A program made the translations under genes and the position numbers. Under the pieces are notes generated by a model. It was given only the letters and a program-made list of their open reading frames with translations, had not been told where the DNA came from and made no database searches. DNA of 64,000 nt from Naegleria gruberi (taxonomy: Eukaryota), in assembly GCA_000004985.1 (NCBI GenBank), contig GG738915.1. One strand, 5' to 3'. Below, one piece after another: positions 21,341-61,147 of this stretch. Each line of letters starts with the position of its first letter. Position 1 is the stretch's first letter.

Positions 21341-22924
21341 TTAACAATCCGTTAGTTGCAATTGTGGGAAAATGTCCTTAAGTGAACTTGATGAAGAACA
21401 AGTAGAAAACCTATTGCCCATCAAAAGTAGTACTTTTAGTTTAGAAAATACTGGCTTTTTAAATAGGGGGATAGCAATCGTAGGCAGGAAATTGGAGGTT
21501 AAATTCAACACTTCTAAATTCTCAAATTTTCCTTCTGATAAGAAGTTGATACCTCTTGTCTTGATTCTATTAAACGAAAGATTCAATTCCTGTAATGATT
21601 TCAAAGTATCACAAGCTAAATTCTCACATCCAAAACATGTGATACAATTTCTATTCAGCTTGAGCTTTTTCAGATTTGAAAACATTGGTGATTGAAATAC
21701 TACACAACCTTCATCTCCAAAGAAATTACCTTCCAACGATAATTCACTAAGATTATTCATTATTCCTTCAGAGAGGTAAATCATTGCAGAACTATTGATT
21801 TTGGCATCAGCTATTTTCAGAGTTCGGATTTCTTTCAAACCTTTTGAAATAAAACTTGCTCCTTCGTATCCAAGTGGATTTCCTGTCATGTCCAAATGAG
21901 TTATACTCTCAAAATTCCCAATATTCTTGCATGCTGATCCAGGTATATTGTTTCCAACAATAATTAATTTCCTCATACTTGTATTTTTCTGACTGCACAA
22001 TGATTCAAAACCTTCTTCAATATTGTTAAATGATAGATCGAGATATTCCATATTCTGGAGACAACTAGATAAGTATTTAGCACCCTCTGAGCTGATACAA
22101 TTATGAGAAAGATCCAGTATTTTCAAGTTAGTCAGATTTGATAATTCTTTGCACGAGTCAAGTTCAATTGCACTGGCAGTTACTGAGAGAGAATAAACAT
22201 TGGAAAGGGTATTATTTCTGGCAAGATTGGAAAATCCATAATCACTGATCATGCAATGATCCAGTTTAAGTTCCTGCAAAAATGGTTTTGGAGTTCGTGA
22301 AAATTCCCTACATGCAAAATCTGTAATCCTCAATCCATGAATTTCTAATTTTCTGATATTATTTAAATTACCCATTACTGTTTCAATGTATGCATTTTCT
22401 TGTTCATTGAAAATATTAATAAATCCACAGTCATGCAAACTCAGCTCTTGAATGTTTGTGAAATGTCTACAAACACTTGCTACCAGTACACAATAGTAAT
22501 TTGTATTCTTAACCATACCAGTAATGGTATCATGGTAAAGGCTAGTTGCTGTTTGTGCTGAAGCATTAAACCACTTTTTACAAACCATTGCACACTTGGC
22601 CAATGATTCAAACTCTAAATACGAAAAAATCTCCATATAAAACAATTCATCTGGCACTTCATTCAAATGAGATAATATCAAACTTTGTTTTTTTCGTTTA
22701 GAATCTTGCACCACAACAGACCTATCTTTCAATTCTTCTTTCATTTCTCTATGCTCTCTCTTTCTTTTCAATTGCTTTGTGTTCATTTTTCTTTCGGACG
22801 AAGAAGCATTACAACGTGAGGCTTGTTTTAAATTTGGAATCTCGTCAATATTTTTTGGATCAAAGGTAAAAACGTTGTTGGCTATTTGCGGAGTTCGGTG
22901 TACTAGCTTCATTCTGATCATCAC
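21341..22924 (-). CDS. F-box / RNI-type leucine-rich-repeat protein
   Basis: 527-aa ORF. An N-terminal F-box-like segment (LILSHLNEVPDELFYMEIFSYLEFESLAKCAMVCKKWFN) is followed by more than 12 ribonuclease-inhibitor-type LRRs (L..L.L..N.I...G...L). Confidence 0.7.
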   Translation of the reverse strand: MMIRMKLVHRTPQIANNVFTFDPKNIDEIPNLKQASRCNASSSERKMNTKQLKRKREHREMKEELKDRSVVVQDSKRKKQSLILSHLNEVPDELFYMEIFSYLEFESLAKCAMVCKKWFNASAQTATSLYHDTITGMVKNTNYYCVLVASVCRHFTNIQELSLHDCGFINIFNEQENAYIETVMGNLNNIRKLEIHGLRITDFACREFSRTPKPFLQELKLDHCMISDYGFSNLARNNTLSNVYSLSVTASAIELDSCKELSNLTNLKILDLSHNCISSEGAKYLSSCLQNMEYLDLSFNNIEEGFESLCSQKNTSMRKLIIVGNNIPGSACKNIGNFESITHLDMTGNPLGYEGASFISKGLKEIRTLKIADAKINSSAMIYLSEGIMNNLSELSLEGNFFGDEGCVVFQSPMFSNLKKLKLNRNCITCFGCENLACDTLKSLQELNLSFNRIKTRGINFLSEGKFENLEVLNLTSNFLPTIAIPLFKKPVFSKLKVLLLMGNRFSTCSSSSSLKDIFPQLQLTDC

Positions 22925-23114
22925 GCGAAACCTTTTGTTGTTTTTTTATTTTTTAAAAATTTAAAAATTGTTTGTTCCTTTTTTTGTGCTATTTTGAGAG
23001 ATGGGAATTGCGATTCTTTTCCTTGATTGAACTCGCAGAAGTTTTATGGAACACTTTGTAAAAAAGACAAATGAATATGTTCTGAATTCTTAAATGGAGA
23101 GTTGGGAAATCAAG

Positions 23115-24605
23115 TTATTTGTTGTAGAAGAGGGAATAACCGTAGATTAGTCTAAGGATAATGTTTGAGCTAGTTTCTTCCACCAATCCAGTATCAGTGT
23201 TGTTAAGGGGTTGAGTATTGGAGAGGAAGATTTGTCTAATGACTGGCTGTAGGGAGTTAGAAATGACCTGAGAGAGAGGAATCTTACTACTGTGAATATG
23301 GAGATAGTTGTATCCATTCTTGAGGGTTGTGAATTTAATTCCCTCATTTCTGCAGCCATTTAGATTAAGTAATTGATTAATGGGAAAGTTGTGAATGAGT
23401 ACCATGATGGAGGTGATGATTTTTCTTATGGAAACAATGCTAAAGAAGAGGAAAGAGAAACTCAAGTAATAAACTGCAACAGTTGGATAGAGGAATATGC
23501 AAATGGTAAAGAGAATGATGCCTAGAATGAGTTGATCATTAGAATAGTCCTCACAATTGTCCAATCTCTTCTTGAGCGGATTAGCCTTCTTTCCTCTAAA
23601 TAATCTCCACAATGAAAATATCAAATGAATGAGTTGGTTGTAGAGTCTTGAAATTATTCTGTAAAAGAGTAAAATATTGATCGATACAACAAGTAGCAAA
23701 TCACAAACAAGTGCCAACATGGTCGATGCTCCCATCAGGCAAGAGGAGGATATAGACCATATTAAAACTCTAAACAAATCTACTGTGAAAAAATCTGAGA
23801 GATAGTAAAAACCAAAACTCAATAGAGTTTGCCACCATCTCAATCCTCCGAGTGCCATTTGTCCCAATATGATATTCAACTGTTTGTTCAATTTAATACC
23901 TCCTGGATTACTGTCCTTTATCAACCATTCAAAGTGTTGAAACATGTTAATTAAAATGTACTTGTAGAGAGAAATAAATCGTTTTTTCAAATCAATTAAT
24001 GTTGATTCATCCAATTTCCAAACATGATAGATTATCAAAAATCCTAATATCAAATCTAAAATCATATTAAAAGACATTCCAATCCTACTAATATTCTCCA
24101 AATGTTTCTTCAATATACTCGAATTGATAGGAGTGTTAAATAGTGAATATTCTATTGCTTCTCTTCTCGCTTTGGAATTTCCATTATTTAAATGTTCTAG
24201 TGATGACAAAGTTTTCTCCTCATCACGATCCAAAGAATATTTGTACTTTGTATTCCTATCATAATAAATATAATAAATATTATTAATTGAATAATCATCG
24301 GAATGATCAGTGAGAATTATTCTCGAATTTTCAAGAGTAAAATTGAATTTTGAATGATATAATTTAGGAGTGGTAGTACTGCTCTGATGTAAATATCCAA
24401 TACTAGTTGATGGATCACTATTTGCAATCAAATCTTCTTCTGATGAAGCAAGTAATGGTTTTGCATCTTGAATGATAACATCCAAAATTGATTCACTCGG
24501 TTGTCTGATAATTCCTTCCACAATGTGTAGTTTTGAATTTTGTGTTATGCATTCCTTTTCAAATCCGAACGGTATGTAAATATTCAGAGAAAGCAATCGT
24601 GCCAT
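23115..24605 (-). CDS. PIGQ: PIG-Q / Gpi1 (GPI-GlcNAc transferase complex subunit)
   Basis: 496-aa multi-TM ORF. The C-terminal region aligns with human PIG-Q. [55 protein letters not shown] matches [73 protein letters not shown] matches AGNPAGLKLNTPLDQFLGR. Confidence 0.8.
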   Translation of the reverse strand: [496 protein letters not shown]

Positions 24606-24629
24606 TTTTTTACAATAACATTTAATTAT

Positions 24630-26391
24630 TTAATTATTAACTATTTGATAATCGGAGGAGGAATTATTATGATCTGATAAGAGAGATTCCTTATTTGAAT
24701 TAGAAACGGAGTGTGTCTCTTTCTTTTTACAACAACAATAGAAATTAGAGAATTCTTCTGAATCAAACTCAACATAACTCAAACAGAACAAGAAAGAATG
24801 AATGAAAAACATGTGAATGACAGAGTAGAAGAATCCAATTTCACCCAGGGATACATTTAGAAGGTTGATGATCATAATTCCAACGTTATAAAGGAATAAA
24901 CAACTCATGCCAAGAATTGACAATTTCAAACTCTTCAGATTGTGTTAACATATTTAAATATTGAACACATTAACAACTTACACTAGAGTGGAAGAGGCTC
25001 ACTTCTGTCAGCCTTCTCAACATTAAGAAAATGAAAATTATAAAGACTCCAAATATTGTTGGCAGGGCTATTCCAACAGCAAATAAGAAGGCTGACAGAT
25101 TCCTGTACCTATCGAGTAGATCAGTACTTGAAGTTATAATAATTACAAAAAGTGTAACTTCCAACACGAGTGCAAGAATTAAAACACAATATGTGATGAA
25201 AGGAGAGAGTATCCTTTTGTACTTGAACGAGTAAATTGTTCTCAGCCATTGTAAAACAACTGAAAGTAAGGTTTGTGTGATAAAAATCAGAGCCATACTC
25301 GTAAAAACAAGGACATAAATTTCCTCTGAAAATATGAGAAGCATACTGGCCATTAAATATGAAAATTCTGTCAGGCATATGAAGAGTGAAGTAAGTATTT
25401 TCATGTGTTGTCTCCTTAAATCTTTGAGTTTAGGTAGGAAAATCAAAACAATTGTTATAATAAAAAATAGAGCCATGAAGAATAAGTAAGCAAACTTTAC
25501 ACCAAGTCTGAAATTAGAAGTCATATAGTTATTGTTACATTTGAAAGAGAAGTACTCATTGTTTAAATTTCCAACACAATTACAAATATAGCAATATTGG
25601 CTTGAATATTGATTTGGAAGAATAGATGTTGTGTCCACAATTATTGGTAGTCCCAGCTCTTCAAATCCACAATAACTGATACTCGATGGAAAATATCTAA
25701 TCATTTTTTGAACTATTGGATCCACAATTGAACGAGTGTCCAAATTCCTTATGGGGGTGTCACTGCAATAATTGCAGAAATTAATCCACTCATAAATAGT
25801 TGTTTGGTTTTTAGTAATTCTATTAATTCTGGAAATGATATCATTTTCTGTTGAATTGAACAGCAAATCTCCACAAGTTATATTCAGTTTCGTCTCCCAA
25901 AATTTAATCTTTTCACATAAATTATATTTTCCATAAGGCGTAAAGTAAAACTCTCCATATAGATTAGAAAGCACACCAATATGAGAGATTGGAACGTGAT
26001 AACTTCTCGATATTTTAACTTCGTTACATTTGAAATCTCCATACTCTGAATTTCTAATAACCTCATTAGCAAATTTACTTTTATCCATCAAGATTTCATC
26101 CACATTCACACAATCAACAAAGTTACTTCCAATCGATCTCAAAGAATGATTTCCTTTTTCAAAGAACTTATTCTCGCTCCACATATTAACAGTTGAATGA
26201 TCACGTCCATTCCTATTGATCGTCCTAATTTCATTCCGATACAGTTGATAAAATAACATAGAGGGTGAATAGCATTCTGCCTTAAATAACATGACGATAA
26301 TTGCCATCATCAAGACGAATATTAAAACAAAATAACTTTTCAAAGATAATTGAATGTTCTCTCCACCTCCTCGGACGAGATATCTCATCAT
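24630..26391 (-). CDS. 7-transmembrane receptor-like protein with a Cys-rich N-terminal ectodomain (GPR107/108/TMEM87 'LUSTR'-like topology), 2 exons: 26391-24982 and 24932-24630
   Basis: The 473-aa ORF ends three codons after a strong GTAAGT donor (minus strand, plus coordinates 24976-24981). A 49-nt intron runs to a CTGAAG acceptor. It joins in frame to the TTG-initiated 99-aa ORF 24630..24929, which supplies two further TM helices. The protein has a signal/TM at the N-terminus, a cysteine-rich ectodomain of about 270 aa, and then 7 predicted TM helices. Family assignment is weak. Confidence 0.5.
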
Positions 26392-26439
26392 TTTTTTTAA
26401 AAGGAAATACGCAAGCGTGATAAAGTATTATGTGTTAGT

Positions 26440-27249
26440 TTAATAAATGTACATTCTGTTGGTGGTTATGAAAACGGCATTGTAATAGTCCAATAATTCA
26501 GATCCGAAAATTCCCTCAACACCCTTAAAACAAGTCACCATGTAGGAGAGCTCACTAGGTAAGATGCCAAATTTCATTGTAAGATTGGCTGTTCCTTGGA
26601 ATAATTCACTCGAGTTTGAATCGCTATTTACAGTTACTGGAAGAGAGTAGAAATGTCCAACAAATTTACCAATTGATGGATGGAAATCGTCTTCCTCACC
26701 CAAATATCTCACTCCATTCACAGTGGAGCCATCAGTTGGAATTGAATCAAACCACTTCTCTGATCCATATGATAATTTAGCTCCAGTATCAAAGTACATT
26801 TTCACCTTTTTGAATGGAGTTGTTACTTGCATGATTGGCAGTGTCATTATTCTCTCCAGTGGAAAGCTAACCATTTCACAATCTATCGAATTAGCAGTGT
26901 TATGATTTTCCAACAACTCTGGTTCTGTTACTTGAGAACTGTAAAATGTCATTTTGGTTTTTCTAATCTCATAGCTGAAATTGCACAGGACATCATTACC
27001 AATAAGATAATCAAGTCCATGACCAATAAGCTCTCCAATTTTATGTGTTGATGCACCAAAAACAGGACTCTGCGAACTGAGGAAGGTGCACCCACCAAGC
27101 TCTAGATTCTTATGAGACGAAGAAAGAGTAACAGGAGAACCTGTATCAATCAATGCATACAAGACTGGGTCGTCTTGATGTTGTGGTATTTCAATAATGA
27201 CATGTCCATCTACAAAGAGCACTTTATAGCTTGTAATTGATCTGATCAT
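26440..27249 (-). CDS. Small aspartic-peptidase-like protein with two D-T-G motifs
   Basis: 269-aa ORF with ALIDTGSPVTLSS near the N-terminus and YFDTGAKLSYGS in the second half. There is no obvious signal peptide. It is shorter than typical pepsins and is not a single-DTG retropepsin. Confidence 0.45.
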   Translation of the reverse strand: MIRSITSYKVLFVDGHVIIEIPQHQDDPVLYALIDTGSPVTLSSSHKNLELGGCTFLSSQSPVFGASTHKIGELIGHGLDYLIGNDVLCNFSYEIRKTKMTFYSSQVTEPELLENHNTANSIDCEMVSFPLERIMTLPIMQVTTPFKKVKMYFDTGAKLSYGSEKWFDSIPTDGSTVNGVRYLGEEDDFHPSIGKFVGHFYSLPVTVNSDSNSSELFQGTANLTMKFGILPSELSYMVTCFKGVEGIFGSELLDYYNAVFITTNRMYIY

Positions 27250-27720
27250 TTTTTTTGCTTGTTATTGTCTGTTTTCATTCCAATGAATTGTTCTATTTTT
27301 AATGGAAAACTGATAACGTGCTGGAAAATGGTTCCGAGGTGTTGGCACGTCATTTCTATTAATGTAAGGTTCACTGCTGAAGATGGAACTAGCGTTTTTA
27401 AATTTGTTAAATCTTTACAAAATATTAAATAGTGTTGACAAATGCATACCCAAAGTGAACACCAGTATTGTTACATTTCATTCAAAAGGGTCATTGTGTT
27501 AACGTTGGTGGCGCTGATTCTCCAACACAACGACAAGAGATTCATAAATAGAAGTGTGAAACTGCAATAATGTATTACTCGATAGATTTATATGTACAAT
27601 TGTTACAAAGTAAAATAGTTTCCAGTTTAATACTTCTCCACACTAATTTACTCCAATAAAGTTCCATCATATCATTACTTTTGTTTTCCTTAGTGAAGCA
27701 CAAAAAGAATGATAGTCCAG

Positions 27721-29490
27721 TTAATGGGTTTGGTTCTTCTGTTTGGCAACATCAGCCATATATCTGGCAATTTGTTCACAAATTTCTTGGTCTGGGGTAT
27801 TGAGATACTTGAACACAAATGCGTGACTTAATAAATCTCTACATGAGTATCTATCTTCAGGCGATACTTTGAGGCAATTCTTGATAAAGTCTTCAAATAC
27901 TTCTGAATATCCCTTTCCTTCGAGTGGGTTCTTCGTTTCTACATTGTTAATTTCGTCCATTACATCGAAATAGGAACCAGATTTGAATGGGAATTCGCCC
28001 AATGCTAACTCCACCAATGTCACACCCAGAGACCAAATATCACTATTGTAGGAGTGAGGTTTTTCATTAATTCTCTCAGGTGACATGTACATGATTGTTC
28101 CTTGACATGTATTCCATACGTGTTGATTTCTTAGTCCGTATTTTCCTCCTTCGGTTACTTGGTTATTCTTTTTAAAAATACCTGTCAAACCCATATCACT
28201 AATTTTCACTTCACCATTCAGCTTGATGAGGATATTTGCTGGTTTCTATTTCAATATAAATTAAATAACAATTTCAATAAAATTATTACATACCAAATCT
28301 CTATGTACAATCTTTTTTCTAAAATGTAAGAAATACAAGCCTTTCAGCACTTGGAATGTAATCATTTCCAAAATTCTTTCTGGAATTTTAATTCCAGCAA
28401 GGGACTCTAAGGAGTTTCCATCCATATACTCTAATAAAATATTAATCTTATTATCTGCAAAGTTGGCATTGTAGAGCCTCAAAATGTTCGAACATTCAAC
28501 ACAATTATATAAAGTTGTAATTTCAGATAAAATTAATTTAGGTTGAATATCCTTTGCTAATTTGACAATCTTTTTGGCATATAATTTTCCAGTGTTATCT
28601 TTGACCAATTCAACTGTGGAACTTGCACCTTCTCCGAGTTTCTTAATAGTTTCCAAATCAGAAAATGACACAGAAGTAATCTTCTTTTGGCCATGTTTCT
28701 TCCTTTCAAAATGTAACAGATTGGCACCATTGGTTTGGTTCATGAAACGACTGGATTTTGTTGGTGAGGTGATAGATTCCAAATGATGTGTAGCTTTAAA
28801 TGGTGATTGGGATTGTGTTTGGGTACAAATTGTTGATGGCATATTTGTGATACCCTCCTCTGTAATTTTAACATCATCAATCCAAAAAGCACCAGAGGCA
28901 GTTATTTCATAATCTACTTGGGAGTAAGTGCCTTCATCATTTTTAGGTGGTGGTTTCAGTGGTTCTTCTGCTTTCGTCTCAACAACTTCTGCCTTGGTAG
29001 CGTTCAATAGTAAATTTGTTGGTTTGAATTTCTTTTGTTTCTTCTTCTTTTCAATTTTACCTTTTGGTTTATCCACGTTGTTTTGAATTTCTTCTGCCTT
29101 TGCTTCAATAATTTGTTTCTTGCCCATGCTCTCTCTCATGTGAGAGGAAAAGGATGGTGTGGAATTGTTATTGGCATTACTACTATTAACATCCACCGAG
29201 TGATTGGAATTATTAGCATTCAAGTCATCACTAGCAATCATTGCTGAGAAGAAAGTACTGGATGATCCCGATGAAGTTGGGGTAGGTGTTGAAACAAGCA
29301 TCGGATCATTGAATAAATCTAATTCTCCACCATCATTAACTGTTGTTGATGTTGCAGGTGTTTTCATATCAGTGAAGGATGCAAACAAATCCTTGGCAAA
29401 TTTGTCATCAAAAAACGTGTTGGATTTGTTGAGAGGTTGTTTCTGATTCTTGTCAGGACTATTGAAAAATTGGTTTATCATTTTGATCAA
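27721..29490 (-). CDS. MAP kinase kinase (MEK/STE7-like) with a long S/T/N-rich N-terminal extension; 2 exons: 29490-28294 and 28245-27721
   Basis: Exon 1 ends in ...KKIVHRDL directly at a GTATGT donor. A 48-nt intron (28246-28293) ends at a TTGAAATAG acceptor. Exon 2 continues KPANILIKLNGEVKISDMGLTG...GTIMYMSPERINEKPHSYNSDIWSLGVTLVELALGEFPF, which is the MEK activation loop and subdomains VIII-IX. The glycine loop and VAIK region (KKLGEGASSTVELVKDNTGKLYAKKI) are in exon 1. The DFG motif reads DMG. Confidence 0.85.
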
Positions 29491-29883
29491 TGTGTTATTA
29501 CAAGAAATTCTTTCAAATATTATAATTATTACTATTGCACTATGAATATGTTCTTTTGTTACAGATTTAGAAGAACATGTGTTGCCGAGCTATTTTTATA
29601 TAAATGTAAAAAATTGAAAGCCTCCTCGATTTTCAATATTTTTTTCTTTAGACATATACAAGTTCCAAACGCCACTCGAACAGGATGTTCAAAGCTTTTT
29701 CTTCAGAAACACATGATCATTGATAATAGTTAGATTTGGAATAGATATTTTGATCTAAGAAGCAGTGTACACCAATAAATATGAAAATAATGAGCTTTAT
29801 TCTACTACACATGTACGTAATAGATGAATTTCAACAATTTTGACTTTATACCCATTACACTCTGTTATTTAGTTGTGACAACT

Positions 29884-31737
29884 TTATTTTATTTTGAGTT
29901 TCTCTTCCAACTCCTTGACTCTTTTCTTTAATTCCACAATTTCGTGTTTGAGTTGTTCATTCTCTTCAATAATTTGAGGAATATCCTTTAACTCACTTAT
30001 ATCCTTGTAATTATCCATTTCCTTAAGAATTTGATGAATTGGAATACTGTCACCTTTCAAAAAACCAATTACTTTGGATAGAATAGTCATGTGTGTGAAA
30101 CAGTTCAATCTTTTGGATGCATCTTTTTGAATCATGGTAATTAAACATTTCACTAAAACAACATTCACTCCCAACTCAGGATCAACATGTTGATCAATTT
30201 CTTTTTGAATTGCATGATGCAACTTCTTTTCCCTCAATAAATCTGTCAATACCAAATAGAAATAACTTCCATTATCTTTGAAATATTGATACTCTCCACC
30301 ATATTTTTGAAAATTAGAATCTTCCAAGAATTCTCTGTCCAACCTCAAACTGCAATCTGTCAAAAGTTTCAATAACATACATCCCAGTGAGAATACATCA
30401 CATGAAGTGGTAATATTTCCAATATTGTGAGCAAGTTTTTCACCATCCAGTAACATTTCTTCGTAATTATCATGTGAAACTTCAGGTGACATGTATGCAA
30501 ATTTTCCAACTGTTAACGTGATTGAGTTACCAGTCTTGATCACTTTGGCAATATCGAAGTCAATAATTTTGTAATATTCTTTCATTTTCACAACATTTTT
30601 AGGATCCAAATCTCTGTGTGAAATGTTATGGTCATGAATTGATTTCACTGCTTGTAAAACTTTAGTAAATATAGTCAACCTTTCAATCAGAATTCCTTTT
30701 GAAATGGATGCTTGTTTTTGATGTACTGTCCTTTTTCTATCGATATAGTCTGCAAGTGTTTCTTCTCCCAACTCCATAATCGAATACATGTAATTGTCAA
30801 TTAAATTACATTCATAACACTTAATTTTTCCTTCAATGTCATTTCTTCTGATAAATTGAATTCGTTCGCGAGATGACACTTCATCATATTCCTTCTCAAA
30901 CTTGATTTTAATGGCAATCATTTCATTAATCTTCTTACTAAATGCTTTTAATGCAACTCCTTCTCCTCCATGACCTAATACTGATATCATATCATATTCC
31001 TTGTTGGAGTAGTAATCGAATTGAGTAATTACTCTAATAATTTTTGAGAAATCTCCTCCAAGTTGTTTGTACTTTGTTAATACTTGTTTGTGATCTTCAA
31101 ATGTTTTGGCATTGCTTGTCCATTCATTGAAAAAGCAAAGTATTGTTCCAATCTCTTTAGTGAAATAATTTAATGTTTCAAACTTGGATGAAATATCCTG
31201 AATTATTGTTCTAATCTTGGAATAATTGGTTTGTTTCATTAAGGTTGATTGATTTTCCTCTAAAAATCTATCCAGTTTAAAACAAAACAAATAGTAATCA
31301 ATTGTCTTGATCGCACTACTTGAATGATTAACAGTTGGCTCTATAGAACACAGATTTTTCAGAATTTGTAAAATAATCATCTTTTCCATAAATTGGATTG
31401 AGTACGATCTTTGATTTAGGTTGAATATTGAAGTAATAGATTTGGGAAATGTATCTCGTAATTGTAAACAATAGTACAAATAGGATTCATCACCAAAATT
31501 ATTAGAGTACATTCCTATTAAATCTCTTGATAATTTGGTCAAGGTTGAATCGTTCTTAGATCTTTCAAATACAGCAAACCATTTTGAATTACTATTTTTT
31601 GCCTTTTCTTCATCAACTTGTGAGAGTGAGTACTGAAATGACAAATCGGACAATAAACTATCATCTGCAAACTCAATGGTAGACCGTGGGAGGTGAGAAG
31701 GATTGACAAATATTTTTATAAAAAATTTAGAAGTCAC
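29884..31737 (-). CDS. Atypical protein kinase with a novel N-terminal domain and C-terminal coiled coil
   Basis: 617-aa ORF. The kinase core has LGHGGEGVALKAF, AIKIK, HRDLDPKNVV (Asp instead of Lys in HRDLKPxN), DFDIAKV (DFD instead of DFG) and YMSPEV. The C-terminal coiled coil is EENEQLKHEIVELKKRVKELEEKLKIK. Confidence 0.65.
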   Translation of the reverse strand: MTSKFFIKIFVNPSHLPRSTIEFADDSLLSDLSFQYSLSQVDEEKAKNSNSKWFAVFERSKNDSTLTKLSRDLIGMYSNNFGDESYLYYCLQLRDTFPKSITSIFNLNQRSYSIQFMEKMIILQILKNLCSIEPTVNHSSSAIKTIDYYLFCFKLDRFLEENQSTLMKQTNYSKIRTIIQDISSKFETLNYFTKEIGTILCFFNEWTSNAKTFEDHKQVLTKYKQLGGDFSKIIRVITQFDYYSNKEYDMISVLGHGGEGVALKAFSKKINEMIAIKIKFEKEYDEVSSRERIQFIRRNDIEGKIKCYECNLIDNYMYSIMELGEETLADYIDRKRTVHQKQASISKGILIERLTIFTKVLQAVKSIHDHNISHRDLDPKNVVKMKEYYKIIDFDIAKVIKTGNSITLTVGKFAYMSPEVSHDNYEEMLLDGEKLAHNIGNITTSCDVFSLGCMLLKLLTDCSLRLDREFLEDSNFQKYGGEYQYFKDNGSYFYLVLTDLLREKKLHHAIQKEIDQHVDPELGVNVVLVKCLITMIQKDASKRLNCFTHMTILSKVIGFLKGDSIPIHQILKEMDNYKDISELKDIPQIIEENEQLKHEIVELKKRVKELEEKLKIK

Positions 31738-33280: not shown

Positions 33281-33353
33281 CGCCCCACGTGGGGCTCGAA
33301 CCCACGACCGTTGGATTAAAAGTCCAACGCTCTACCGACTGAGCTAGCGGGGC
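33281..33353 (-). tRNA. tRNA-Lys (anticodon UUU)
   Basis: The reverse complement GCCCCGCTAGCTCAGTCGGTAGAGCGTTGGACTTTTAATCCAACGGTCGTGGGTTCGAGCCCCACGTGGGGCG folds as a cloverleaf. It has a 7-bp acceptor stem (with one G-U pair), a GTTCGAG T-loop, and the anticodon loop CTTTTAA. Confidence 0.85.
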
Positions 33354-48119: not shown

Positions 48120-48936
48120 ATGGTGGTATGTAAAATTGCTCTCCGCTTGAGGAGGAACGAGAATCTAATCATGATGTGCTGGTAAAACTACAAATATCAA
48201 ACAATATATATTAAAAATCTTTATGATCACGATTTGTGGAATTAAATTAATAATAATATTGGACCTATGAAAAACAATAATTTGTGAAATAATTATTCTT
48301 CATCAATCATCATCATATGAAAAACTTGTCATCATCAAAATGTGAATAACATCATCAATCGGATATTGAATATAATAGCTTGTTTTAGTTATTGGAGATC
48401 TCCACATTCCACACAGAGCCAACGATCTTCCAGAACAATTTAAAGCCTTGCTTGTTCCTGGTAAAATTCAACACATTCTCTGTACTGGTAACTTGTGTTC
48501 AAAGGAAACTTATGAATATTTGAAAACTATTGCTCCTGATGTTCATGTTGTTAAGGGAGAATTTGATGAAAAATTCAAAGGAATTTCACCACCAAAGGAA
48601 TCTGAAATTATAGAAATTGGACAAGTTAAAATTGGTCTCATTCATGGTCATCAAATCGTTCCATGGAATGATAAGGAATCACTTTCCATGTGGCAAAGAA
48701 AATTGGATGTTCACTTGTTAATTTCTGGACATACTCACGAACACAAAGCTTTTGATTATCAAGGAAAGTTTTACGTAAATCCAGGTAGTGCAACTGGAGC
48801 CTTTTCTCCATTAACAGAAAACGTTGTTCCAACATTTGTCTTGATGGATATTCAAGGAGGAACTATTGTGAATTACATTTACCAATTAGAAGATGGAGAA
48901 GTTAGAGTGAAAAAGAAGGAATTTCGTATTCAATAA
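48120..48936 (+). CDS. VPS29: Vps29 (retromer subunit, metallophosphoesterase fold), 2 exons: 48120-48125 (ATG GTG micro-exon) and 48379-48936
   Basis: The open frame from 48379 reads [49 protein letters not shown] ... [11 protein letters not shown] ... LLISGHTH ... [12 protein letters not shown]. This matches human VPS29 ([50 protein letters not shown] ... GLIHGHQVIPW ... ILISGHTH ... [12 protein letters not shown]). There is no in-frame ATG before 48448. The best model is ATGGTG at 48120 with a GTATGT donor, a 253-nt intron and a TATAATAG acceptor at 48378. Confidence 0.85.
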
Positions 48937-49038
48937 AAAAGTGTAATATTAAATATTTAAATAATCGAATTTAGTGGAATTGTAATTTAGCCAAAACCTA
49001 AAACTAGTCTCATGTTAGTCAAATCGGAAATTATGGGT

Positions 49039-49840
49039 TTATTCCAAAGCAACAACAGCACCCATTTCTTCAAGAGCCTTCTTGAGAGCTTCAGCTTCTT
49101 CCTTTGGAACGTCCTTTTGTATAACAACTGGTGCAGATTCAACCATTTCCTTAGCAGCCTTGAGGGTAAGGTTCTTATCAATCTTTCTAAGTTCCTTGAT
49201 GATTGAGATTTTACCCTTTTCGTCAATCTTTTCAATTTTAACGTTGAATGAAGATTTGACAACTTCTTCCTTCTTTTCTTCCTTAACTTCTTCCTTAACT
49301 TCAGCAGCAGCTGGGGCAGCTTGAGCGGCCATAGCTTGCATCATAGCTGGGTTCATGGCCATCATACCGCCACCACCCATTGGTCCGAAATCCAATCCCA
49401 AACCAACCTTGAGCATAGCTTCAGTTGGGTTAGGTATATCAATATCAATACCAACACTGTTCTATTAAAGTTATTGTTGTTGTTGTTGTTGTGTGTTATC
49501 ATTGTTATTATATTGTTAGAGAAATTTGTGTCATTTAAAGGCGCAAACAATATTCCGTGAAAAATTGCCGATAATTATTAATTAATTATTGATACTCTAT
49601 CATTCGTTTCGGTATGAATCTACTTACTCTCAAATATTGTTGAAGCATTATACTTTCCAAAACATTGAGAGACAAAACATCATCACCAATTTTCTTAACT
49701 TTTTCTGGAAGAACAACTTTACCCTTTGATGGGATTTCAACGAATTCTTCGCATCTACAAGCAGATGTATGATATGATTTAAAAGAAGAAACTCTTGAGA
49801 GTCTAAGTTTGCGGGAAGTGGAGGCAATTCTACTCAACAT
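49039..49840 (-). CDS. Mitochondrial ribosomal protein bL12 (L7/L12), 2 exons: 49840-49628 and 49461-49039
   Basis: Exon 1 reads [24 protein letters not shown]..., a mitochondrial presequence followed by the bL12 N-terminal domain ([26 protein letters not shown], compare human MRPL12 [31 protein letters not shown]). A GTAAGT donor begins a 166-nt intron that contains a (TTG)6 microsatellite at about 49474-49491 and ends at a TTAATAG acceptor. Exon 2 carries an Ala/Met-rich hinge and the C-terminal domain [69 protein letters not shown]. Confidence 0.85.
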
Positions 49841-50246
49841 TTTTTTTTCGAGTTTATTTTTTTACAACTCTTCTTAAAATTACAACACCGAATAGAGCAC
49901 AATTTAGATTGGATTTTAGAAGAATTAATTATATAATATTGTATACTTGTTGTTCTAATAGTAATAGAAGAAGAATTGTGAGAAGTTTGTTGAAGGTTTT
50001 TATGGTTGTTTCATTGGAGTGTGATGAAAAAACCTCACATAAAATGTGAGCAAGAAAAAATCTTCGGGAGATGCAAATTACATCTAGAATAGTAGCCAGA
50101 ATATGATAGAACTTTTCTATTACTACTATGAGCCAATAACAACAAAGTTAACACCAACTAGTTAGACAGCAAACCAAGTAGTCAGAGCAGTGACGAACAT
50201 TACATGTTTGATGACGATGTAATCTAAAAATTATTATTATTAAAAA

Positions 50247-53880: not shown

Positions 53881-53953
53881 CGCCCACCGTGGGGGTCGAA
53901 CCCACGACCACAAGGTTAAGAGCCTTGCGCTCTACCGACTGAGCTAGACGGGC
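53881..53953 (-). tRNA. tRNA-Lys (anticodon CUU)
   Basis: The reverse complement GCCCGTCTAGCTCAGTCGGTAGAGCGCAAGGCTCTTAACCTTGTGGTCGTGGGTTCGACCCCCACGGTGGGCG is a cloverleaf with anticodon loop CTCTTAA. It lies 55 nt downstream of the vWA gene stop. Confidence 0.85.
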
Positions 53954-60850: not shown

Positions 60851-60931
60851 CGCAGACTGCAGGATTCGAACCTACGAAGGTTTCCCCAACAGATTTCAAG
60901 TCTGTCGCCTTAACCACTCGGCCAAGTCTGC
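60851..60931 (-). tRNA. tRNA-Ser (anticodon UGA) with long variable arm
   Basis: The reverse complement GCAGACTTGGCCGAGTGGTTAAGGCGACAGACTTGAAATCTGTTGGGGAAACCTTCGTAGGTTCGAATCCTGCAGTCTGCG has a 7-bp acceptor stem, a GCCGAGTGGTTAAGGC D-arm, an ACAGA/TCTGT anticodon stem with loop CTTGAAA, a variable arm of about 14 nt and a GGTTCGAATCC T-arm. Confidence 0.8.
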
Positions 60932-61074: not shown

Positions 61075-61147
61075 GCGCAAGTAGATCAGTGGTTAGATCG
61101 TCCGCCTCACACGCGGAAGGTCGCGGGTTCAAACCCCGCCTTGCGTA
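61075..61147 (+). tRNA. tRNA-Val (anticodon CAC)
   Basis: GCGCAAGTAGATCAGTGGTTAGATCGTCCGCCTCACACGCGGAAGGTCGCGGGTTCAAACCCCGCCTTGCGTA folds with a 7-bp acceptor stem (G1-U72), T8-A9, a GATC/GATC D-stem, an anticodon stem TCCGC/GCGGA with loop CTCACAC, and a GCGGG-TTCAAAC-CCCGC T-arm. Confidence 0.85.

What the first reader, a model, noticed from the sequence alone, without database searches (positions are those of the whole stretch)
24606..26439. Three co-oriented genes with 48-nt and 24-nt spacers (Asp peptidase - 7TM receptor - PIG-Q): possible polycistronic or tightly coupled unit
On the minus strand the aspartic-peptidase-like gene stops at 26440 and the 7TM gene ATG is at 26391, a spacer of 48 nt. 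The 7TM gene, after its 49-nt intron, stops at 24630 and the PIG-Q ATG is at 24605, a spacer of 24 nt. These spacers are too short for an independent promoter and 3' UTR. That implies overlapping UTRs, co-transcription, or trans-splicing-like processing. Other intergenic spacers in the window are 100-900 nt. Because PIG-Q acts in GPI-anchor biosynthesis, a functional link between it and a neighbouring membrane receptor and peptidase is conceivable but speculative.
Basis: seen in the sequence. Interest (0 to 1): 0.5.

Follow-up and report, generated by a model that had tools for sequence, protein, structure and literature searches.

The report
Three tightly packed Naegleria genes
Three same-strand genes of the amoeba Naegleria gruberi really are only 48 and 24 bases apart, but they look like unrelated genes brought together recently in a compact genome, not a conserved operon-like unit.

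Summary
The window is Naegleria gruberi. On the minus strand, an aspartic-protease-like gene (26440-27249), a 7TM gene (26391-24630, with a 49-nt intron) and Gpi1/PIG-Q (24605-23115) are separated by 48 and 24 nt. Homologues support all four coding boundaries. These are the two shortest same-strand spacers in the window; the next is 128 nt.

The proposed functional unit is not supported.
- In N. fowleri, N. lovaniensis and Willaertia, Gpi1 lies head-to-head with mitochondrial ribosomal protein L12. That gene sits about 25 kb away here, so Gpi1 moved in the N. gruberi lineage.
- The protease-like gene has only bacterial relatives (Leptospira, 65% identity) and is probably a horizontal acquisition.
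- The 7TM gene belongs to a Naegleria-only family and appears to be missing from public protein sets.
- Neither spacer contains an AG, so there is no canonical trans-splice acceptor.
- Each gene has the standard A-run before its ATG.
- The 48-nt spacer varies in length (57 nt) in a second strain.

Most likely these are three separate mRNAs with overlapping control regions: promoters inside the upstream gene's 3' coding end, and ATTAAA hexamers over the upstream stop codons. No transcript data could be reached, so read-through co-transcription is not excluded.

The parts
26440..27249 (-). Aspartic-protease-like gene, 269 aa, no intron (NAEGRDRAFT_81847). It has two DTG motifs (D35, D154) and is a probable bacterial acquisition.
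   Evidence: ORF. It is 100% identical to N. gruberi P0038, and the nearest relatives are Leptospira sp. 'Mane' (65% aa) and other bacterial-context proteins. The AF2 model has pLDDT 78, and the top Foldseek PDB hits are pepsin-family proteases. No Pfam hit. Against the second strain there are 4 synonymous and 0 non-synonymous differences.
26392..26439 (-). 48-nt spacer between the Asp-like stop and the 7TM ATG. It has no AG dinucleotide, contains an in-frame TAA, and ends in a run of 7 A (26392-26398).
   Evidence: In the second strain (L001) it is 57 nt, with a 10-nt insertion, a 1-nt deletion and 3 substitutions. That is 29% divergence against 0.4-0.5% in the flanking DNA.
26439..26444 (-). 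ATTAAA hexamer overlapping the Asp-like stop codon; a candidate poly(A) signal.
   Evidence: An A(A/T)TAAA hexamer sits at exactly this register in 7 of 28 predicted genes in the window. Its function is inferred, not shown.
24982..26391 (-). 7TM gene, exon 1 (470 codons): signal anchor, Cys-rich ectodomain and TM1-5.
   Evidence: It belongs to a Naegleria-only family of 28 cluster representatives, and the best hit is only 33% identical, so this copy is absent from public protein sets.
24933..24981 (-). 49-nt GTAAGT..AG intron of the 7TM gene.
   Evidence: Removing it restores the frame. Many paralogue models stop inside the same intron position, while full-length paralogues read through into homologous TM6-7.
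24630..24932 (-). 7TM gene, exon 2 (100 codons plus TAA): TM6-7, the YVEFDSEEF motif and the C-terminal tail.
24606..24629 (-). 24-nt spacer between the 7TM stop and the Gpi1 ATG. GC is 8%, there is no AG, it contains a 3-codon mini-ORF (ATG TTA TTG TAA), and it ends in a run of 6 A (24606-24611). It is in frame with Gpi1 and stop-free.
24621..24634 (-). Two ATTAAA hexamers (24629-24634, overlapping the 7TM stop codon, and 24621-24626) within a direct repeat TAATTAAA x2; candidate poly(A) signals.
   Evidence: Function is inferred.
23115..24605 (-). Gpi1/PIG-Q gene, 496 aa, no intron.
   Evidence: Pfam PF05024 at 2.2e-62. It is 100% identical to N. gruberi P0001, with orthologues in N. lovaniensis, N. 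fowleri and Willaertia.
48379..49855 (.). Metallophos (48379-48933, +) and mitochondrial ribosomal protein L12 (49042-49855, -). These are the conserved ancestral neighbours of Gpi1 in other heteroloboseans and now lie about 25 kb from it.
   Evidence: tblastn of N. lovaniensis, N. fowleri and Willaertia locus ORFs against the window, and the gene orders.

Best explanation
These are three unrelated, separately translated genes that lineage-specific events placed head-to-tail in a compact genome. Those events were a bacterial gene acquisition, membership of a fast-evolving Naegleria-only 7TM family, and relocation of Gpi1.

Each gene most likely makes its own mRNA (inferred, not shown):
- The transcription start for the 7TM gene and for Gpi1 lies in, or just upstream of, the short AT-rich spacer. 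The promoter elements are embedded in the 3' coding end of the upstream gene.
- The upstream mRNAs are cleaved and polyadenylated in the spacer or the first bases of the next gene. ATTAAA hexamers that overlap their stop codons would direct this.
- The transcription units therefore physically overlap or abut, as in other compact eukaryotic genomes. There is no functional coupling between them.
For: Shown:
- The gene boundaries are real.
- The arrangement is not conserved. Gpi1 is divergent from L12 in N. lovaniensis, N. fowleri and Willaertia. The L12 and Metallophos genes sit at 48-50 kb in this window.
- The Asp-like gene has only bacterial relatives among 5.8 billion proteins and none in other Naegleria proteomes.
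- The 7TM paralogues in N. fowleri lie in a tandem array with no Gpi1 or Asp-like neighbour.
- All three ATGs carry the generic N. gruberi context of at least 6 A in positions -8..-1. This is seen at 15 of 28 predicted starts against 3% of all ATGs.
- The 48-nt spacer is the fastest-evolving stretch between two strains and changes length to 57 nt, so it is not a length-constrained coupling element.
- Each upstream ORF contains 20-39 AUGs, which makes downstream translation by leaky scanning from a polycistronic mRNA implausible.
- All seven E2F-like sites in the window are intergenic, and six lie within 12-70 nt of an ATG. This suggests promoter-proximal elements normally sit very close to start codons in this genome.

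From the literature:
- Heterolobosea average about 2 genes per co-directional run and show no sign of polycistronic architecture (bioRxiv 10.64898/2026.07.29.740908).
- Overlapping transcripts, 5' UTRs under 7 nt and poly(A) sites 16 nt after the stop codon are documented in the compact genome of Encephalitozoon (PMC2803860).
Against: - No transcript evidence of any kind was reachable, so start sites, poly(A) sites and expression of the 7TM gene are all inferred.
- N. gruberi is not an extremely reduced genome, and other same-strand spacers in the window are at least 128 nt. It is unexplained why both flanks of one gene are so short.
- Naegleria promoters and poly(A) signals have not been characterised. 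The roles assigned to the A-run and to ATTAAA are analogies.
Confidence: 0.58

Rival explanations
1. This is a true polycistronic unit. One promoter upstream of the Asp-like gene (in the 471-nt region 27250-27720) drives a bi- or tricistronic primary transcript. The downstream ORFs are expressed after RNA processing, or by internal initiation or re-initiation.
For: - The spacers are too short for a conventional promoter plus UTRs.
- Six consecutive genes (21341-31737) share the minus strand.
- Naegleria belongs to Discoba, whose euglenozoan branch uses polycistronic transcription.
- Multigene transcripts occur in other compact genomes.
Against: - Neither spacer has an AG acceptor, and Rfam found only four tRNA genes in the window, none in or near the triplet.
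- The arrangement is not conserved in three related species.
- The upstream ORFs are 269 and 570 codons long with 20-39 AUGs, which excludes leaky scanning.
- The spacer length varies between strains.
- Comparative genomics places Heterolobosea with conventional monocistronic genomes.
Confidence: 0.12
2. The 7TM copy is silent or decaying. In that case its 3' part effectively serves as the promoter and 5' region of the relocated Gpi1 gene, and the 24-nt 'spacer' has no significance for two active genes.
For: - This copy appears to be absent from every public protein set, although the N. gruberi proteome is present there.
- In the first 107 codons it shows 5 non-synonymous and 1 synonymous differences between two strains. 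Its neighbours show 0 non-synonymous and 4 or 2 synonymous differences.
Against: - The reading frame is intact over 570 codons in 32% GC DNA.
- The splice sites are canonical.
- Every family-invariant Cys, Pro, Gly and Asn is retained.
- The strain differences fall in the N-terminal region, which is poorly conserved across the whole family (pLDDT below 50).
Confidence: 0.15
3. The short spacers come from wrong gene models. The true start codons would lie further downstream, or the 7TM gene would end at the unspliced stop at 24970, which would leave a 364-nt spacer.
For: - The 7TM protein has internal Mets at positions 28, 29 and 34.
- Without splicing, the ORF stops at 24970.
- Several tight spacers in related annotations turned out to be artefacts. 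The N. fowleri 32-nt spacer came from a TTG start call, and the Willaertia 62-nt spacer is really an intron of Gpi1.
Against: - Homology supports every boundary.
- Exon 2 carries the family's TM6-7 and C-terminal motifs.
- Gpi1 has no alternative in-frame ATG before its conserved domain.
- In strain L001 the 7TM ORF is open even further upstream, from an ATG 21 nt after the Asp-like stop.
Confidence: 0.05
4. Stop-codon read-through fuses the 7TM protein to Gpi1. The 24-nt spacer is in frame with Gpi1 and stop-free (IIKCYCKK).
For: - The frame relationship is.
- The topology is compatible: the 7TM C-terminus would be cytosolic, and I assume from general knowledge (not tested here) that the Gpi1 N-terminus is cytosolic too.
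Against: - The chance of an in-frame, stop-free 8-codon spacer is about 0.14.
- From general knowledge, a TAA stop followed by A is a strong termination context.
- Gpi1 keeps its own ATG in the standard A-run context.
Confidence: 0.02

Closest known systems
Overlapping or abutting transcription units in compact eukaryotic genomes (microsporidia such as Encephalitozoon cuniculi and Antonospora locustae; nucleomorphs)
   Same: Head-to-tail genes lie closer together than a promoter plus UTRs would need. Control elements are displaced into neighbouring genes. 5' UTRs are very short and poly(A) sites lie a few nucleotides after the stop codon (PMC2803860).
   Different: N. gruberi has a 41-Mb free-living genome with typical spacers of hundreds of nucleotides in this window. 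The tight packing here is a local exception rather than a genome-wide rule. No transcript mapping exists for this locus.
Polycistronic transcription units with SL trans-splicing in Euglenozoa (kinetoplastids, diplonemids, euglenids)
   Same: Both involve co-oriented neighbouring genes, and Naegleria shares the Discoba supergroup with these organisms.
   Different: The spacers have no AG acceptor or acceptor-type signal. Heterolobosea show about 2 genes per co-directional run and conventional intergenic proportions. Intercistronic regions in Diplonema clusters are not especially short. From general knowledge, SL trans-splicing has not been reported in Heterolobosea.
   Same: Two ORFs on one strand are separated by tens of nucleotides.
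   Different: As I recall, those pairs are usually conserved in order and have short upstream ORFs that permit leaky scanning. Here the order is not conserved, and the upstream ORFs are 269 and 570 codons long with many AUGs.
Prokaryote-to-protist horizontal gene transfer in phagotrophic amoebae
   Same: An intronless gene whose only close relatives are bacterial (Leptospira-type, 65% aa) sits between genuine eukaryotic genes and has acquired the host's A-run start context.
   Different: The homology ends exactly at the stop codon, with no bacterial flank retained. With only five family members known, the direction of transfer rests on distribution and not on a phylogeny.

Membership tests
Gpi1 / PIG-Q (GPI-GlcNAc transferase subunit, PF05024) | Match to the Gpi1 profile above the curated cut-off | tested here: met
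   211 bits against a cut-off of 22.2, E 2.2e-62, covering profile positions 14-254 of 265. Orthologues in three heteroloboseans align over the domain.
Gpi1 / PIG-Q (GPI-GlcNAc transferase subunit, PF05024) | Participation in GPI-GnT activity | not testable with these tools
   Needs biochemistry or genetics.
Pepsin-like (A1) / retropepsin-like aspartic peptidases | Catalytic D-T/S-G motif in each of two lobes | tested here: met
   D35-T-G and D154-T-G-A are invariant in all five family members.
Pepsin-like (A1) / retropepsin-like aspartic peptidases | Bilobal beta-barrel fold | tested here: met
   The AF2 model has pLDDT 78 and pTM 0.79. The Foldseek PDB top 50 is almost all pepsin-family aspartic proteases (renin, plasmepsins, cathepsin D), plus a putative bacterial endopeptidase at rank 1 and a pepsin-fold plant globulin. 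E is about 1e-6 and TM about 0.5.
Pepsin-like (A1) / retropepsin-like aspartic peptidases | Sequence membership in a curated family (Pfam PF00026, PF13650, PF13975 and similar) | tested here: not met
   No Pfam hit even at E up to 10. Only the most distant homologue, P0042, carries PF13975. I therefore call it 'aspartic-protease-like fold' and not an A1 member.
G-protein-coupled receptors | Seven transmembrane helices with the N-terminus outside | tested here: met
   Hydropathy shows a signal anchor plus 7 TM segments. The AF2 model has seven long helices at residues 288-525.
G-protein-coupled receptors | Sequence or fold membership in a GPCR class | tested here: inconclusive
   No Pfam family matches any of 20 family members. 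All the best Foldseek PDB hits are GPCRs, but they are weak (E 5e-3 to 3e-2, target-normalised TM 0.45-0.63).
SL-trans-spliced polycistronic unit (euglenozoan or nematode type) | AG acceptor (with a pyrimidine tract) in the intercistronic region | tested here: not met
   There are no AG dinucleotides in either spacer. AG-free stretches of these lengths are not rare by chance (P = 0.08 for 48 nt, 0.26 for 24 nt).
SL-trans-spliced polycistronic unit (euglenozoan or nematode type) | Single primary transcript spanning the genes, with a shared leader on the mRNAs | not testable with these tools
   No RNA data were reachable. Exact look-ups found no transcript-derived contigs. Rfam found only four tRNAs in the window.
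Conserved bicistronic gene pair or functional gene cluster | The same adjacency in related genomes | tested here: not met
   In N. lovaniensis, N. fowleri and Willaertia the order is Metallophos, L12(-), Gpi1(+). Those neighbours lie at 48-50 kb in the window. The Asp-like gene is absent from their proteomes.
Horizontally acquired bacterial gene | Nearest relatives are bacterial and sit in genuine bacterial contexts; the gene is absent from sister eukaryotes; it is embedded among eukaryotic genes | tested here: met
   Searches give a complete Leptospira chromosome and bacterial-type contigs. An intron-containing kinase and Gpi1 flank the gene here, and the kinase and the 7TM gene flank it on a second strain's contig. 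Caveat: unannotated copies in other Naegleria genomes could not be searched.

The most novel reading that the evidence does not exclude
The Asp-like, 7TM and Gpi1 genes are co-transcribed from one promoter, and the downstream cistrons are expressed from a processed or internally initiated polycistronic RNA. This would be the first operon-like unit in Heterolobosea, the sister lineage of the polycistronic Euglenozoa. It would have arisen de novo when a relocated housekeeping gene (Gpi1) and a horizontally acquired gene landed without promoters of their own.
Probability: 0.1. Interest if true: 0.65.

Novelty: new member of a known kind. Interest (0 to 1): 0.27.

Why it matters
As a gene-packing oddity it matters little. 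Compact protist genomes are known to place genes closer together than classical promoter models allow.

It does have some practical value:
- It reveals a probably unannotated member of a Naegleria-specific receptor-like family.
- It flags a clean candidate for bacterium-to-amoeba gene transfer.
- It provides a natural test case of a relocated housekeeping gene with only 24 nt of upstream non-coding DNA. Naegleria promoters and UTRs are still uncharacterised, so this locus could help define the minimal sequence needed to start transcription.

If the genes were truly co-transcribed, the finding would bear on how polycistronic transcription arose in Discoba.

Tried and rejected
- **Transcript evidence.** Exact-sequence look-ups for Gpi1, the unspliced 7TM ORF and the N. 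gruberi Gpi1 model found nothing. The Asp-like protein was found only on one 2.3-kb contig labelled as a metagenome and collinear with the genome, probably from a second strain. No RNA-derived contigs turned up.
- **More relatives.** Two metagenome scans, one with 7TM exon 1 and one with the Gpi1 alignment, returned nothing.
- **Word-indexed homology search for the 7TM protein.** It returned nothing. The exhaustive HMMER search was needed to find the family.
- **Literature.** I found no published Naegleria UTR lengths, transcription start sites, poly(A) signals or intergenic statistics. Transfection papers use about 1-kb flanks and do not define promoters.
- **Other tight spacers as precedent.** The 32-nt spacer after N. 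fowleri Gpi1 is an artefact of a TTG start call; the real ATG is about 134 nt downstream. The 62-nt gap before Willaertia 'Gpi1' is probably an intron inside a split gene model. Neither counts as a precedent.
- **A bacterial 3' flank or terminator remnant in the 48-nt spacer.** Homology to the Leptospira locus stops at the stop codon.
- **An Asp-like neighbour beside the N. fowleri 7TM paralogues.** The 263-aa gene between them is itself a partial 7TM paralogue.
- **Base composition as a marker of transfer.** It was uninformative. The Asp-like gene has 37% GC, the host genes 32-37% and the Leptospira homologue 38%.
- **A shared promoter motif upstream of window genes.** Only the A-run before the ATG is general.
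Full report
**Organism and observation**

The window is Naegleria gruberi. The ORF at 23115-24605(-) is 100% identical to an N. gruberi predicted protein and matches Pfam Gpi1 at 2e-62. The window has about 34% GC and short GT..AG introns.

- The Asp-like ORF stops at 26440.
- The 7TM ATG is at 26391, leaving a 48-nt spacer.
- A 49-nt GTAAGT..AG intron (24933-24981) restores the 7TM frame, giving 570 aa and a stop at 24630.
- The Gpi1 ATG is at 24605, leaving a 24-nt spacer.

**Are the gene models right?**

Yes, at all four boundaries.
- The Asp-like protein begins at the same Met and ends at the same RMYIY as its homologues.
- The 7TM protein found nothing in the word-indexed search. The exhaustive HMMER search found 28 cluster representatives. 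All seven that carry a source name are Naegleria proteins: N. gruberi NAEGRDRAFT_71816 and 70071, and several from N. fowleri and N. lovaniensis.
- These paralogues share the N-terminal signal anchor ('MRRYLI' against 'MMRYLV' here), a Cys-rich ectodomain (DWINYCxYC; FPxSxxYCG) and seven TM helices.
- The paralogues also align across the splice junction into exon 2, including Y(V/M)EF(D/E)xEEF and a C-terminal S-S/T-Y/D-Y tail. Many annotated paralogues end inside the same intron position, so the intron is old in this family.
- Gpi1 has only one in-frame ATG upstream of its domain. Its N-terminal NIYIPF motif recurs at the very N-terminus in Willaertia and in a metagenomic relative.

The best database hit to this 7TM copy is only 33% identical, although the N. 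gruberi proteome is in the database. The copy therefore seems to be unannotated.

**Is the spacing unusual?**

Within the window, yes. About 27 ORF-level gaps range from 73 to 2554 nt. Two further values, 66 nt and a 10-nt overlap, are probably introns inside single genes. The next-shortest same-strand gap is 128 nt.

Annotated N. lovaniensis and N. fowleri loci show same-strand gaps of 83-773 nt. Two apparent precedents dissolved on inspection. One came from a TTG start call and the other from a split gene model whose 'spacer' is probably an intron. The chance that the two shortest of 27 gaps are adjacent is only about 2/27, and I could not compute genome-wide statistics.

**What the three genes are**

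- **Gpi1/PIG-Q** is secure.
- **The 'Asp peptidase'** matches no Pfam model even at E = 10. It has two invariant DTG motifs, and its AF2 model (pLDDT 78) matches pepsin-family proteases. It is a compact protein of 269 aa, with no obvious N-terminal hydrophobic signal (by inspection) and an aspartic-protease-like fold.
- **Origin of the Asp-like gene.** Only five homologues exist among 5.8 billion proteins. Apart from N. gruberi itself, the best are from Leptospira sp. 'Mane' (65% aa, 63% nt; complete chromosome) and from other contigs with bacterial gene contexts. No other Naegleria proteome has it.
- **Why it is not contamination.** The gene lies between an intron-containing kinase and genuine eukaryotic genes, and it recurs on a second strain's contig. 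That makes it a probable bacterium-to-Naegleria transfer. Homology ends at the stop codon.
- **The 7TM protein** has a signal anchor, a roughly 260-aa Cys-rich ectodomain and seven helices. Its fold matches are weak but exclusively to GPCRs.

**Comparative test of the 'unit'**

In N. lovaniensis, N. fowleri and Willaertia the order is Pribosyltran, (endosulfine), Metallophos, L12(-), Gpi1(+). In this window Metallophos and L12 sit at 48379-49855, about 25 kb from Gpi1.

The N. fowleri order of X, Polo kinase and MAPKK-like kinase matches window 37973-27721. This places Gpi1 on the opposite side of that block in N. gruberi. Gpi1 therefore moved in the N. gruberi lineage, and the junction 24 nt upstream of its ATG is young.

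The N. fowleri 7TM paralogues lie in a tandem array with no Gpi1 or Asp-like neighbour. The triplet is thus made of a foreign gene, a lineage-specific family member and a relocated housekeeping gene. That does not look like an ancient functional cluster, and no link to GPI anchoring emerges.

**Sequence of the spacers**

- Neither spacer has an AG dinucleotide, so there is no canonical 3' splice or trans-splice acceptor. Rfam finds only four tRNA genes in the window, all elsewhere.
- All three ATGs are preceded by a run of A. At least 6 A in positions -8..-1 occurs at 15 of 28 predicted starts against 3% of all ATGs. Each gene therefore carries the organism's standard start context.
- Both upstream genes have an ATTAAA hexamer overlapping their TAA stop. 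A(A/T)TAAA sits in exactly that register in 7 of 28 genes. The 7TM gene has a second copy 8 nt later. If these act as poly(A) signals, which is an inference, cleavage would fall in the spacer or the first bases of the next gene.
- All seven E2F-like sites (TTTSSCGC) in the window are intergenic, and six lie 12-70 nt upstream of an ATG. This hints that promoter-proximal elements and 5' UTRs are short in this genome.
- Between the window and a 98.7%-identical second strain (L001), the 48-nt spacer is the divergence hot spot. It carries a 10-nt insertion, a 1-nt deletion and 3 substitutions, and is 57 nt long.
- In that strain a new in-frame ATG opens the ORF 21 nt after the Asp-like stop.
- Over the same comparison, the Asp-like CDS has 4 synonymous and 0 non-synonymous changes. 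The first 107 codons of the 7TM gene have 1 synonymous and 5 non-synonymous changes.

**Mechanism**

A single mRNA could not deliver ribosomes to the downstream ORFs by scanning, because 20-39 AUGs would have to be bypassed. Separate mRNAs are therefore required.

The simplest reading is independent initiation at or just upstream of the AT-rich spacers, with promoter elements inside the upstream gene's 3' coding region. Upstream 3' ends would form in or just beyond the spacers. This is overlapping or abutting transcription of the kind documented in microsporidia.

A comparative preprint places Heterolobosea with conventional monocistronic genomes: about 2 genes per co-directional run, and a ratio of about 1 between intergenic lengths between and within runs.

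Read-through co-transcription, a silent 7TM copy whose sequence now acts as the Gpi1 promoter, and (remotely) read-through fusion across the in-frame, stop-free 24-nt spacer all remain possible. No RNA evidence could be reached.

**Verdict**

This is a local example of a known kind of compact gene packing. It comes with three modest by-products: a probably unannotated receptor-like gene, a probable bacterial gene acquisition, and a relocated Gpi1 with only 24 nt of upstream spacer.

Noticed in passing
window 24630-26391 (-): This 570-aa 7TM gene appears to be missing from public protein sets. The best hit among 1.84 billion cluster representatives is a 33%-identical N. gruberi paralogue. It belongs to an uncharacterised family of Cys-rich ectodomain plus 7TM proteins; all members that carry a source name are from Naegleria, and no Pfam model matches any of them.
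   Followed up: yes
window 26440-27249 (-); L005-L009: The aspartic-protease-like gene has only bacterial relatives (Leptospira sp. 'Mane', 65% aa) and no homologue in other Naegleria proteomes. It is a probable horizontal acquisition. The whole family has only 5 known members and no Pfam model.
   Followed up: partly
window 48379-49855 versus 23115-24605; L002, L003, L004: The divergent L12-Gpi1 adjacency conserved in N. lovaniensis, N. fowleri and Willaertia is broken in N. gruberi. Gpi1 now lies about 25 kb away, on the other side of the Polo and MAPKK-like kinase block, and the Metallophos-L12 block is inverted relative to N. fowleri.
   Followed up: partly
window 783, 20195, 32145, 33552, 33607, 36153, 56613: All seven E2F-like motifs (TTTSSCGC) in the 64 kb are intergenic. 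Six lie 12-70 nt upstream of a predicted ATG. This suggests very compact promoters and a set of E2F-type regulated genes.
   Followed up: no
stop codons of the window genes ending at 24630, 26440, 29884, 36081, 49039 and 53825: An A(A/T)TAAA hexamer overlaps the TAA stop codon in the same register in 7 of 28 predicted genes. This may be a poly(A) signal fused to the stop codon. I estimate that about 2-3 would be expected by chance.
   Followed up: partly
window, upstream of 15 of 28 predicted start codons: A run of A directly before the ATG (at least 6 A in positions -8..-1) marks real starts; only 3% of all ATGs in the window have it. It could help choose start codons when annotating Naegleria.
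   Followed up: partly
L001 (ENA ERZ929261 contig) versus window 26071-28323: A contig labelled as a metagenome is 98.7% identical to the window and is probably a second N. gruberi-like strain. It has the same order of kinase, Asp-like gene and 7TM gene. Divergence is concentrated in the 48-nt spacer and the 7TM N-terminus.
   Followed up: yes
L004 9627-11203 (Willaertia magna): The annotated 103-aa gene upstream of Willaertia 'Gpi1' carries the Gpi1 N-terminal motif (NISIYLPF). It is probably exon 1 of Gpi1, so the gene model is split.
   Followed up: partly
L011 10001-15004 (N. fowleri): There is a tandem array of 7TM-family paralogues: FDP41_003040, a 263-aa partial paralogue, and FDP41_003042. 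Several annotated family models end inside the conserved intron and so lack TM6-7.
   Followed up: partly
window 33281-33353(-), 53881-53953(-), 60851-60931(-), 61075-61147(+): Four tRNA genes lie in intergenic regions. The two at 33281 and 61075 have identical Rfam scores.
   Followed up: no
window 21341-31737 (-): Six consecutive genes share the minus strand: F-box/LRR, Gpi1, 7TM, Asp-like, MAPKK-like kinase and a second kinase. This is longer than the roughly 2 genes per co-directional run reported for Heterolobosea.
   Followed up: no
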